Counted from the stretch's first letter, positions 31,720 through 31,778 are shown. The stretch is DNA of 64,000 bases from Escherichia coli (GCF_041886205.1 NZ_CP169029.1); one strand, 5' to 3'. The notes: generated by a model not told the origin, from the sequence alone. A program made the numbers and translations.

Positions 31720-31778
31720 ATATTTCCAGAATAATCGAAATGAGATTCAGATCAAGATATTTCTGGTATTATCGAAAT
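31720..31778. promoter_or_regulatory. Two 22-bp direct repeats in the divergent arsR2/arsP promoter region (candidate operator)
   Basis: atatttccagaataatcgaaat and atatttctggtattatcgaaat, 19 of 22 identical, 37 bp apart. Confidence 0.4.

What the first reader, a model, noticed from the sequence alone, without database searches (positions are those of the whole stretch)
31720..31778. Paired 22-bp direct repeats in the arsR2/arsP divergent promoter
Two near-identical 22-mers (atatttccagaataatcgaaat and atatttctggtattatcgaaat) lie 37 bp apart in the 106-bp divergent spacer. This is the kind of duplicated operator an ArsR-type repressor would use to control both promoters.
Basis: seen in the sequence. 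Interest (0 to 1): 0.35.

Follow-up and report, generated by a model that had tools for sequence, protein, structure and literature searches.

The report
Paired operators of a methylarsenite-type ArsR
The two 22-bp repeats between the divergent arsP and arsR2 genes of this E. coli chromosome are real and are very probably the two binding sites of the neighbouring ArsR-type repressor, a relative of the known methylarsenite sensor SpArsR, so this is a correct but ordinary regulatory feature.

Summary
ATATTTCCAGAATAATCGAAAT (31720-31741) and ATATTTCTGGTATTATCGAAAT (31757-31778) match at 18 of 22 positions, start 37 bp apart, and lie in the 106-bp spacer between an ArsP-family permease gene (minus strand) and a 98-aa ArsR/SmtB gene (plus strand). 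Each repeat is itself a pseudo-palindrome, ATTTC-N10-GAAAT.

Across 80 species-level loci that encode relatives of this regulator, the same dyad lies about 43 nt upstream of arsR in 69 loci. A second copy appears next to arsP whenever arsP is adjacent. Hit density is 62 times higher there than elsewhere in the loci. From E. coli to Aeromonas the repeats are more conserved (99% and 89%) than the flanking coding DNA.

The regulator is 58% identical to SpArsR, the characterised methylarsenite-selective repressor of Shewanella putrefaciens. It has the same vicinal Cys pair and lacks a third As(III) ligand. The SpArsR-controlled arsP promoter fragment used in a published biosensor carries two copies of the same dyad.

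Best model: a repressor dimer binds each repeat. R2 covers the arsR2 -10 and abuts the arsP -35, and R1 covers the arsP -10. Methylarsenite releases the repressor. This is a new member of a known kind and of low to moderate interest. No binding assay exists for this locus.

The parts
31720..31741 (.). R1, the arsP-proximal operator copy (ATATTTCCAGAATAATCGAAAT). The dyad core ATTTC-N10-GAAAT is 31722-31741.
   Evidence: PWM score 29.8 bits. 89% identity across plasmid, Citrobacter and Aeromonas homologues, against 45% for the adjacent arsP leader. An equivalent site lies next to arsP in 40 of 42 divergent loci.
31757..31778 (.). R2, the arsR2-proximal operator copy (ATATTTCTGGTATTATCGAAAT). 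The dyad core is 31759-31778 and the perfect 8-10-8 palindrome GATATTTC/GAAATATC is 31756-31781.
   Evidence: (I4). PWM score 36.3 bits. 21 of 22 columns invariant from E. coli to Aeromonas. A dyad at about -37 to -54 from the arsR ATG in most of the 80 loci. Near-identical to ATTTCTGGTATTATCGAATT in the S. putrefaciens 200 arsP/arsR spacer.
31750..31755 (-). Inferred -35 hexamer of the arsP promoter (TTGATC on the minus strand), directly abutting R2.
   Evidence: T-C-A-A at this fixed position in 19-25 of 26 compact divergent loci but not in 25 loci lacking arsP. Mean 4.17 of 6 matches to TTGACA against a null of 1.69. The scanner finds the equivalent promoter in Aeromonas (L006) and Shewanella (L020). 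Inferred; no transcription start data.
31728..31733 (-). Inferred -10 hexamer of the arsP promoter (TATTCT on the minus strand), inside R1 and 16 nt from the -35.
   Evidence: It scores 8 of 12 in the window, below the scanner's threshold of 9. Its equivalents pass in L006 (TTGACC-16-TATTTT) and L020 (TTGATC-17-TATATT). Inferred.
31764..31772 (+). Inferred extended -10 of the arsR2 promoter (TGgTATTAT). The hexamer occupies positions 9-14 of the R2 dyad.
   Evidence: In 66 arsR-proximal sites, positions 9-14 read TAttAT, with A10 in 64 of 66 and T14 in 65 of 66, although neither position was used to select the sites. TG lies one base upstream in 18 of 24 compact loci. By eye, single-site Vibrio loci have TTGCAA 17 nt upstream of this hexamer (sequences). 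The scanner finds TTCTCA-17-TATTAT with TG in L020. Inferred.
31803..32099 (+). arsR2: a 98-aa ArsR/SmtB repressor of the SpArsR (2-Cys) type, the presumed binder of R1 and R2.
   Evidence: Pfam HTH_20 and HTH_5, NCBIfam metalloregulator subfamily. 58% identical to SpArsR without gaps, with C91/C92 aligned to Cys101/Cys102. The closest solved structure is AfArsR 6J05, with CC aligned to Cys95/96. No third Cys in the tail.
30695..31696 (-). arsP: an ArsP-family permease (333 aa from the RefSeq start), the regulated target. SD GAGG at 31703-31706.
   Evidence: Pfam PF03773 ArsP_1, E = 1.3e-52. RefSeq annotates it as 'permease'. It contains VTPFCSCSTIP. Its role in methylarsenite efflux is inferred from homology and gene context (PMC6205960).
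31708..31735 (+). Alternative, lineage-specific plus-strand promoter candidate (TTGAAT-16-AATAAT) with its -10 inside R1.
   Evidence: Scanner hit in the window. The plasmid copies have a perfect TTGACA-16-AATAAT. The -35 is not conserved across genera (2.5-2.8 against a null of 2.6), and the common E. coli allele reads TTGGAT.
31754..31783 (-). Alternative minus-strand promoter candidate (TTGATA-18-TATCTT) that brackets R2.
   Evidence: Scanner hits in the window and in Aeromonas. Its -35 is well formed only in Enterobacterales and Aeromonas, not in the 49-bp spacing class.

Best explanation
R1 and R2 are two operator sites for the homodimeric ArsR/SmtB repressor encoded next door (arsR2). 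That repressor is a 2-Cys, SpArsR-type regulator. Each site is a pseudo-palindrome of about 20-26 bp with family consensus TATATTTC-nRnWA-nnATC-GAAATA, the size expected for one winged-helix dimer.

R2 contains the arsR2 -10 hexamer, an extended -10 (TGgTATTAT), and directly abuts the -35 (TTGATC) of the divergent arsP promoter. R1 contains the arsP -10 (TATTCT) and the probable transcription start. With no inducer, dimers on R1 and R2 block RNA polymerase at both promoters. This represses the permease gene and autoregulates arsR2.

A trivalent organoarsenical, most likely methylarsenite, binds the vicinal pair Cys91/Cys92. This lowers DNA affinity and releases both promoters, so the ArsP efflux permease is made.

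Shown here: the repeats, their dyad symmetry, their family-wide co-occurrence with the regulator and with arsP, their selective conservation, and the protein's homology to SpArsR. Inferred: the binding itself, the promoter positions, the effector, and whether the two sites act independently.
For: 1. The repeats are real and not a chance match.

3. Co-occurrence and enrichment. In 80 loci from different species that encode relatives of ArsR2 (59-91% identity), the dyad with at most 1 arm mismatch gives 121 hits in the 23.7 kb upstream of arsR. It gives 31 hits in the other 377 kb, a 62-fold difference in density. Markov simulations of the upstream regions expect 2.6 +/- 1.5 hits. 69 of 80 loci have at least one hit. 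About half of the hits outside the upstream regions are site pairs or single sites in front of an arsP gene that lies downstream of arsR.

4. Site number follows gene content. There are two sites when arsP is divergent, one when arsP is absent, and one plus a separate pair when arsP follows arsR in tandem.

5. Selective conservation. Identity of the seven more distant rows of alignment A2 (plasmid copies, the divergent E. coli E69 allele, Citrobacter, Aeromonas) to the window is 99% for R2 and 89% for R1. It is 84% and 70% for the arsR and arsP coding ends, 62% and 45% for the leaders, and 39% for the spacer.

6. Link to a characterised system. ArsR2 is 58% identical to SpArsR and shares an identical IPGSTLSHHISAL stretch and aligned Cys pair. 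The 222-bp S. putrefaciens arsP promoter fragment contains ATTTCTGGAATTATGGAAAT and ATTTCTGGTATTATCGAATT. In E. coli, that fragment with SpArsR is repressed, and 1 uM MAs(III) induces it to 73% of the no-repressor control, against 9% for 50 uM As(III). PMC13236881 and PMC11868830 describe the Cys101/Cys102 two-coordinate MAs(III) site.

7. Promoter overlap is supported comparatively.

8. P-x-STLSHH and the CC pair are invariant in all 82 proteins examined, matching the invariant dyad arms.
Against: There is no EMSA, footprint, ChIP or transcription start data for this locus, and none that I could read for any family member. The two primary papers on SpArsR and NdArsR are not in the held library.

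The biosensor result shows that the 222-bp fragment confers SpArsR-dependent control. It does not show that the dyads are the element responsible.

In the window itself, my preferred arsP promoter scores only 8 of 12. The generic scanner picked two other candidates there.

Methylarsenite selectivity is extrapolated from a 58% identical protein. Half of the wider family carries an extra Cys and may respond to As(III).

The recognition-helix core is invariant, so there is no protein-DNA covariation to draw on.
Confidence: 0.85

Rival explanations
1. The two repeats form one composite operator. Two ArsR2 dimers bind cooperatively, as a dimer of dimers or through DNA bending, so the pair and its spacing, not each site alone, are what gives repression of arsP.
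For: A pair of sites in front of arsP recurs in every arrangement: divergent, Vibrio three-site, and tandem. Spacings cluster in two narrow classes, 37-39 bp and 48-52 bp, which differ by about one helical turn. Both copies keep the same polarity in all compact loci.
Against: Spacing is not fixed across the family; values of 25, 63, 65 and 66 bp also occur. arsR alone is served by a single site in about 30 loci. The two spacing classes have a simpler explanation in promoter geometry: the arsP -10 lies inside R1 in the 37-39 class and at R1's flank in the 48-52 class, with the -35 always abutting R2. This is a refinement of the main model rather than an alternative to it.
Confidence: 0.25
2. 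The repeats are only duplicated core-promoter sequence (AT-rich -10-like boxes for the two divergent promoters) and no regulator binds them.
For: Both repeats contain -10-like hexamers (AATAAT/TATTCT in R1 and TATTAT in R2).
Against: The most conserved parts are the outer arms ATTTC and GAAAT and their flanks, which lie outside any -10 hexamer and are related by dyad symmetry. Some Vibrio sites are perfect 8-4-8 palindromes. The motif is found next to this regulator family and is essentially absent from the other 377 kb of sampled DNA.
Confidence: 0.04
3. The sites are bound by a different protein: either the canonical As(III)-responsive ArsR encoded upstream of arsDABC in the same window, or a global regulator.
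For: A second arsR (36171-36524, minus strand) lies 4 kb away. Cross-talk between ArsR paralogues is conceivable.
Against: The canonical arsR promoter in this window carries the unrelated TCAT-N7-TTTG element at 36589..36575 (the consensus is from my own knowledge). The dyad follows arsR2-type genes onto plasmids and into genera where the neighbourhood differs. No other site for the motif exists in the 64-kb window.
Confidence: 0.05
4. The repeats act at the RNA level, as hairpins in the 5' leaders that control stability or translation.
For: Each palindrome can fold on itself, and R1 and R2 are partly complementary (I1 and I2).
Against: The predicted fold is no more stable than shuffled sequence (z = -1.08; 27 of 200 shuffles fold at least as well). 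No Rfam family matches the spacer. Under the best-supported promoter placement most of each repeat lies upstream of the transcription start.
Confidence: 0.02

Closest known systems
SpArsR and the arsP/arsR divergent region of Shewanella putrefaciens 200 (Chen, Nadar & Rosen 2017, Mol Microbiol 106:469; summarised in PMC13236881, PMC11868830 and PMC12124457)
   Same: The regulator type is the same: 58% identity, an aligned vicinal Cys pair, and no third As(III) ligand. The gene partnership is the same, with arsP divergent from arsR. The dyad sequence is the same, and the Shewanella arsR-proximal copy differs from the window's R2 dyad core at only one position. In S. putrefaciens the system is a repressor released by MAs(III).
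   Different: The two dyads are about 100 bp apart in S. putrefaciens 200, against 37 bp here. The host here is an E. coli chromosome, where the module sits between slp/yhiS and arsC, next to a separate arsRDABC operon. Nothing has been measured for the E. coli protein. I could not read the 2017 paper, so I do not know whether its authors mapped the operator.
Canonical ArsR (plasmid R773 and the E. coli chromosomal arsRBC) and its operator
   Same: Both are ArsR/SmtB homodimeric repressors that autoregulate from an imperfect dyad overlapping their own promoter and are released by a trivalent arsenical.
   Different: The operator sequence is different: TCAT-N7-TTTG, present at 36589..36575 upstream of the other arsR in this window (the consensus is from my own knowledge). 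The sensor site is different: Cys32/34/37 near the DNA-binding helix, against a C-terminal Cys pair here (PMC13236881). The canonical system has one operator and one promoter, not a pair in a divergent spacer.
AfArsR of Acidithiobacillus ferrooxidans (PDB 6J05)
   Same: It is the closest solved structure (E = 4.7e-10). Its C-terminal Cys95/Cys96 align with C91/C92 of the window protein.
   Different: AfArsR has a third ligand, Cys102, and senses As(III). The window protein has none. I did not compare the AfArsR operator.
SmtB with the smtA/smtB divergent operator-promoter of Synechococcus, and TetR with tetA/tetR O1/O2 (from my own knowledge)
   Same: In both, a divergent regulator/effector gene pair has a short spacer holding two palindromic operators. 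These overlap the core promoter elements, so a single repressor controls both genes.
   Different: The sequences and half-site geometry differ (12-2-12 for SmtB, 15-bp palindromes 11 bp apart for TetR), and so do the effectors. TetR belongs to a different protein family.
ArArsR of Arsenicibacter rosenii (PMC11868830)
   Same: It is an ArsR whose DNase I footprint of about 27 bp lies at -46 to -19 from its own start codon. That is the same position and size as R2 here, whose dyad starts at -44.
   Different: The sequence is unrelated (TTTTATCGTAATATTGCGATCACAATC). It is As(III)-responsive with a different Cys site, and only a single site was reported.

Membership tests
ArsR/SmtB-family operator (DNA site) | Imperfect inverted repeat of roughly 20-30 bp, sized for one winged-helix dimer | tested here: met
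   R2 is a perfect 8-10-8 palindrome and R1 is 5-10-5. The family consensus is TATATTTC-N10-GAAATA, with full-palindrome variants ATTTCGAT-N4-ATCGAAAT.
ArsR/SmtB-family operator (DNA site) | Lies in the promoter of the regulator's own gene or of the regulated gene, overlapping core promoter elements | tested here: met
   Tested in silico only. The R2 dyad starts 44 nt upstream of the arsR2 ATG. -10-like hexamers lie inside both sites and a conserved -35 abuts R2. There are no transcription start data.
ArsR/SmtB-family operator (DNA site) | Co-occurs with the cognate regulator gene across genomes and is under purifying selection | tested here: met
   69 of 80 loci, 62-fold enrichment. R2 is 99% and R1 89% conserved, against 39-62% for the spacer and leaders.
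ArsR/SmtB-family operator (DNA site) | Bound by the purified regulator and released by the effector | not testable with these tools
   Only indirect evidence exists. A 222-bp Shewanella fragment containing both dyads confers SpArsR-dependent, MAs(III)-relieved repression.
SpArsR-type (2-Cys, MAs(III)-selective) ArsR | ArsR/SmtB winged-helix DNA-binding domain | tested here: met
   PF12840 (E = 1.5e-14), PF01022, and NF033788 above its cutoff.
SpArsR-type (2-Cys, MAs(III)-selective) ArsR | Vicinal Cys pair near the C-terminus, homologous to SpArsR Cys101/Cys102 and AfArsR Cys95/Cys96 | tested here: met
   C91/C92 align without gaps to both. The pair is invariant in 82 of 82 family members.
SpArsR-type (2-Cys, MAs(III)-selective) ArsR | Absence of the third As(III)-coordinating Cys (AfArsR Cys102) | tested here: met
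   The tail is EECCVNSKIA with no further Cys. 39 of 82 relatives do have an extra Cys, so this feature discriminates within the family.
SpArsR-type (2-Cys, MAs(III)-selective) ArsR | Genetic linkage to organoarsenical resistance genes (arsP, arsH) | tested here: met
   arsP is divergent here. The plasmid copies have arsP divergent from arsR-arsH. arsP is adjacent in 48 of the 82 loci classified (42 divergent, 6 tandem).
SpArsR-type (2-Cys, MAs(III)-selective) ArsR | Derepression by MAs(III) but not by As(III) | not testable with these tools
   Shown for SpArsR (PMC13236881), not for the E. coli protein.
Canonical R773-type ArsR operator | TCAT-N7-TTTG element (consensus from my own knowledge) | tested here: not met
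   Neither repeat contains it. It is present upstream of the other arsR in the window at 36589..36575.
ArsP methylarsenite efflux permease | PF03773 permease fold with the conserved TPFCSC cysteine motif (motif from my own knowledge of CjArsP) | tested here: met
   PF03773, E = 1.3e-52. VTPFCSCSTIP is in the translation. It stays below the cutoffs of the Cu/Zn SO_0444 and SaoE equivalogs.
ArsP methylarsenite efflux permease | Transport of trivalent organoarsenicals | not testable with these tools
   Demonstrated for C. jejuni ArsP (PMC6205960). That review notes two distinct arsP clades that may differ in function.

The most novel reading that the evidence does not exclude
The ATTTC-N10-GAAAT dyad, and the rule that one copy serves arsR while a pair flanks the arsP promoter core, may not have been described before as the operator code of the whole SpArsR-type family. 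If so, this analysis defines that code across Gammaproteobacteria and beyond. The same operator serves both 2-Cys and 3-Cys (CCxxxxC) regulators, which suggests that effector selectivity (methylarsenite against arsenite) was switched repeatedly without changing DNA recognition. It would also mean that about 44% of complete E. coli genomes carry a dedicated methylarsenite sensing and efflux circuit, separate from the classical arsenite circuit 4 kb away.
Probability: 0.35. Interest if true: 0.45.

Novelty: new member of a known kind. Interest (0 to 1): 0.3.

Why it matters
This locus is a second arsenic-sensing circuit, wired separately from the classical one. The arsRDABC operon 4 kb away has its own ArsR and an unrelated operator. 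The arsP/arsR2 module has the hallmarks of a methylarsenite sensor and efflux pump. It is present in about 2,385 of 5,426 complete E. coli genomes and on many IncF and IncHI2 plasmids from E. coli, Salmonella and Klebsiella, including isolates from humans, poultry and pigs.

Methylarsenite is produced by other microbes and acts like an antibiotic. Trivalent forms of the poultry feed additive roxarsone are also ArsP substrates (PMC6205960). The circuit is therefore relevant to gut and farm ecology.

On the practical side, the operator consensus and the two-site promoter layout give a rational starting point for improving SpArsR-type organoarsenical biosensors. The Shewanella-based sensor gave a signal about 5-fold weaker than the other sensor tested.

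As biology, however, a repressor that binds palindromes in its own divergent promoter is textbook behaviour.

Tried and rejected
1. RNA-level function. The fold of 31712-31802 is not better than shuffles (z = -1.08), and no Rfam family matches the spacer. Rejected.

2. A conserved plus-strand promoter running through R1. The scanner picked TTGAAT-16-AATAAT in the window, and the plasmid copies have a perfect TTGACA. Across 24 compact loci, however, the -35 is at background level, and the common E. coli allele reads TTGGAT. I kept it only as a lineage-specific extra promoter.

3. Covariation between the recognition helix and the dyad arms. P-x-STLSHH is invariant in all 82 proteins, so nothing could be learned.

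4. Fixed helical phasing between the two sites. Spacings of 25, 37-39, 48-52 and 63-66 bp occur, so there is no single phase. Promoter geometry explains the two main classes.

5. Reading the primary SpArsR paper (PMC5653410, PubMed 28861914), the NdArsR paper (PMC8881391) and the ArsP paper (PMC4681449). None is held. Whether the operator was already mapped biochemically therefore stays open.

6. IS621 insertion as a disruptor of the operator. The insertion lies between arsR2 and arsC, not in the spacer.

7. Other targets of the motif in the window. None were found.

Full report
**1. The observation**

The window sequence at 31720-31741 is ATATTTCCAGAATAATCGAAAT (R1), and at 31757-31778 it is ATATTTCTGGTATTATCGAAAT (R2). 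The repeat finder reports them as one direct-repeat family, 82% identical, with 37 bp start-to-start. A degenerate pattern covering both copies finds only these two places in 64 kb, even with three mismatches allowed, and finds none in 100 dinucleotide-preserving shuffles.

The flanking ORFs are a 98-aa ArsR/SmtB protein on the plus strand (31803-32099) and a PF03773 ArsP-family permease on the minus strand.

R2 is a perfect GATATTTC-N10-GAAATATC (31756-31781), and R1 is ATTTC-N10-GAAAT.

**2. Where the window comes from**

The window is an E. coli chromosome, 100% identical to strain wlxctx60. The gene order is gadE-hdeD-hdeAB-yhiD-dctR-slp-(hypothetical)-arsP <-> arsR2-arsC-arsB-arsA-arsD-arsR-dinQ-gorA.

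The spacer with both repeats is present in 2,385 of 5,426 complete E. coli genomes. There are 2,249 chromosomal and 364 plasmid places. The window's own allele is rare: only 5 records match at 99% or better.

Versions about 83% identical sit on IncF and IncHI2 plasmids of E. coli, Salmonella, Klebsiella and others, in the arrangement arsP <-> arsR-arsH.

**3. Conservation of the repeats**

Both plasmid versions keep two repeats at exactly 37 bp.

I aligned twelve sequences: five E. coli chromosomal alleles, three plasmids, the divergent E. coli E69 allele, Citrobacter gillenii and two Aeromonas species. In that alignment 21 of 22 columns of R2 are invariant. Mean identity of the seven more distant rows to the window is as follows:

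- R2: 0.99
- R1: 0.89
- The six bases abutting R2: 0.86
- arsR coding end: 0.84
- arsP coding end: 0.70
- arsR leader: 0.62
- arsP leader: 0.45
- Spacer between the repeats: 0.39

The repeats are therefore under stronger constraint than the protein-coding DNA beside them.

**4. Family-wide test**

The regulator has many relatives: 796 proteins at E <= 1e-10. An alignment of 20 diverse members shows invariant C73, C91 and C92 and an invariant P-x-STLSHH helix. Using that alignment I fetched 80 loci from species-representative genomes. They include Aeromonas, Citrobacter, Buttiauxella, Limnobaculum, Hafnia, Pantoea, Photobacterium, Vibrio, Enterovibrio, Aliivibrio, Shewanella, Psychromonas, Endozoicomonas, Marinobacterium, Pseudovibrio and two deltaproteobacterial MAGs.

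The dyad ATTTC-N10-GAAAT lies about 37-54 nt upstream of the arsR ATG in most of them. With at most one arm mismatch there are 121 hits in the 23.7 kb upstream of arsR and 31 hits in the remaining 377 kb, a 62-fold difference in density. Markov simulations of the upstream regions expect 2.6 +/- 1.5 hits (maximum 7). 69 of 80 loci have at least one hit.

In 66 arsR-proximal sites the consensus is TATATTTCTAGTATTATCGAAATATA. Positions I did not use for selection are nearly invariant: R7 in 66 of 66, W9 in 66 of 66, A10 in 64, T14 in 65 and C15 in 52. In the 64-kb window the matrix scores R2 at 36.3 bits, R1 at 29.8 bits, and nothing else above 4.2 bits.

**5. Architecture**

The number of sites follows gene content.

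- The 42 loci with arsP divergent from arsR have two sites (two loci show only one at this threshold). Spacing is 37 bp (6 loci) or 39 bp (4) in Enterobacterales and Aeromonas. It is 48-52 bp (17 loci, most often 49) in Shewanella, Photobacterium, Enterovibrio, Aliivibrio, Pseudovibrio and some Vibrio. Outliers are 25, 63, 65 and 66 bp.
- Most Vibrio loci have a pair about 50 bp apart near arsP, plus a third site 64-90 bp further on, in front of arsR.
- Six loci have arsR->arsP in tandem. Four of these have one site before arsR and a separate pair 50-52 bp apart before arsP.
- Most loci with no arsP have a single site before arsR.

So the pair belongs to the arsP promoter, and in compact divergent loci its distal member doubles as the arsR site. 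In all compact loci both copies have the same polarity on the arsR strand, with a degenerate left arm ATTTCYRG and a consensus right arm ATCGAAAT. 'Direct repeat' is therefore a fair description even though each copy is a pseudo-palindrome.

**6. Promoters (inferred)**

- **arsP -35.** In 26 compact divergent loci the bases just left of the R2 dyad are T-C-A-A in 19, 21, 25 and 25 loci. That reads TTGA(C/T) on the arsP strand. The 25 loci without arsP show no such conservation. Scored as a -35 at this one fixed position it averages 4.17 of 6, against a single-position null of 1.69.
- **arsP -10.** It follows at 16-18 nt. In the 37-39 bp class it lies inside R1 (window: TTGATC-16-TATTCT). In the 48-52 bp class it is at R1's flank (TATATT). 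The scanner finds these promoters independently in Aeromonas (TTGACC-16-TATTTT) and in Shewanella marina (TTGATC-17-TATATT).
- **arsR -10.** Positions 9-14 of the proximal dyad read TAttAT, and the two best-conserved positions are those of a -10 hexamer. TG lies one base upstream in 18 of 24 compact loci. The -35 is at background level, which fits an extended -10 promoter. By eye, single-site Vibrio loci have TTGCAA 17 nt upstream of this hexamer (sequences), and L020 gives TTCTCA-17-TATTAT with TG.
- **Window placement.** This puts the arsR2 extended -10 at 31764-31772 inside R2, the arsP -35 at 31755..31750 abutting R2, and the arsP -10 at 31733..31728 inside R1.
- **Alternatives.** The two candidates the scanner picked in the window are lineage-specific.
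- **Caveat.** None of this is backed by transcription start data.

**7. The regulator and the link to experiment**

The closest solved structure is AfArsR (6J05). C91/C92 align with its As(III) ligands Cys95/Cys96, and the third ligand Cys102 has no counterpart.

PMC11868830 and PMC13236881 state that SpArsR of S. putrefaciens 200 resembles AfArsR but lacks Cys102. They also state that it binds MAs(III) through Cys101/Cys102 and does not respond to As(III).

The supplement of PMC12124457 prints the synthetic SpArsR gene and the native 222-bp arsP promoter fragment. After I corrected obvious OCR slips, the translated SpArsR is 58% identical to the window protein over 92 residues with no gaps. 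C91/C92 align to Cys101/102, C73 aligns to Cys83, and the stretch IPGSTLSHHISAL is identical.

The promoter fragment contains ATTTCTGGAATTATGGAAAT and ATTTCTGGTATTATCGAATT. The second lies 39 nt before the arsR ATG and differs from the window's R2 dyad core at one position. In E. coli, that fragment with SpArsR is repressed. 1 uM MAs(III) induces it to 73% of the no-repressor control, and 50 uM As(III) reaches only 9%. This is the nearest thing to functional evidence, but it does not show that the dyads are the responsible element.

**8. Rivals**

- **RNA structure:** not supported (z = -1.08; no Rfam match in the spacer).
- **Promoter boxes only:** does not explain the conserved symmetric arms.
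- **A different regulator:** the canonical arsR in the same window has the unrelated TCAT-N7-TTTG element at 36589..36575. The dyad travels with arsR2-type genes onto plasmids and into other genera.
- **Cooperative binding of two dimers:** this remains possible and is compatible with the main model.

**9. Comparison with known systems, and verdict**

This works like a classical ArsR/SmtB repressor-operator pair. It resembles the divergent two-operator layouts of smtA/smtB and tetA/tetR (from my own knowledge).

On membership, the protein meets every sequence-level criterion of the SpArsR type that I could test. The DNA meets the criteria of an ArsR-family operator except for direct binding, which cannot be tested here. 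It is not a canonical R773-type operator.

The finding is a new, uncharacterised member of a known kind. I could not read the two primary papers, so I cannot say whether the operator consensus defined here is already in print.

Interest is low to moderate. The most useful products are the family-wide operator consensus, the two-site promoter layout, and the recognition that a large share of E. coli strains carry a separate, probably methylarsenite-specific circuit.

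Noticed in passing
window 32100-32221 (REP-like hit at 32142-32180); L084 2150-3130: Several E. 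coli strains carry an IS621 (IS110-family) insertion between arsR2 and arsC. In the window, the corresponding spot gives a sub-threshold Rfam naRNA4 (REP-derived) match on both strands (E = 0.0036). The insertion does not touch the operator region.
   Followed up: partly
ArsR C-terminal tails in L002-L083 (window protein residues 91-98): The regulator family splits into 43 proteins with only the CC pair (all Enterobacterales copies, most Aeromonas, SpArsR and the window protein) and 39 with an extra Cys, mostly CCxxxxC (30 cases, largely Vibrio). Both groups sit next to the same dyad. This suggests that effector selectivity (methylarsenite against arsenite) may have switched without any change in DNA recognition.
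   Followed up: partly
window 36575-36589 (minus strand): The promoter of the second, canonical arsR (36171-36524, first gene of arsRDABC) carries gTCATatatgttTTTGac, the classical TCAT-N7-TTTG ArsR operator. It is unrelated to the repeats under study, so the window holds two separately wired arsenic circuits.
   Followed up: partly
L022, L023, L026, L027, L030, L033, L038, L040, L069 (Vibrio); L028, L051, L060, L068 (tandem loci): These Vibrio loci have three dyads, including perfect 8-4-8 palindromes (ATTTCGAT-AAAA-ATCGAAAT). These loci with arsR->arsP in tandem have a separate pair of dyads 50-52 bp apart in front of arsP. Together they show that the pair is a property of the arsP promoter.
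   Followed up: yes
supplement of PMC12124457 (Nd-ars-gBlock): The promoter of NdArsR from Noviherbaspirillum denitrificans, the other published MAs(III)-responsive ArsR, contains ATTTCCAGTATTTTGAAAT. This is a similar dyad with an apparent 9-nt rather than 10-nt centre. The text comes from a machine-read PDF, so a base may be missing.
   Followed up: no
window 28893-30116 (minus strand): A 407-aa ORF between slp and arsP has no Pfam domain and is annotated 'hypothetical protein' in RefSeq. From my own knowledge, it occupies the position of yhiS in E. coli K-12.
   Followed up: no
L003 5663-7365 (plasmid p1658/97): On this IncFIB plasmid the arsP <-> arsR module continues into arsH, a sigma-70-family factor gene and an arsD-family gene, and is flanked by IS100, IS903 and IS26. 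It is a mobile organoarsenical-resistance cassette with an unusual sigma-factor passenger.
   Followed up: no
window 31661-31680: A 10-nt tandem duplication, TGCGGCATCT/TGCAGCATCT, lies inside the 5' end of the arsP coding sequence. It is probably a chance feature of the codons for the conserved N-terminus.
   Followed up: no
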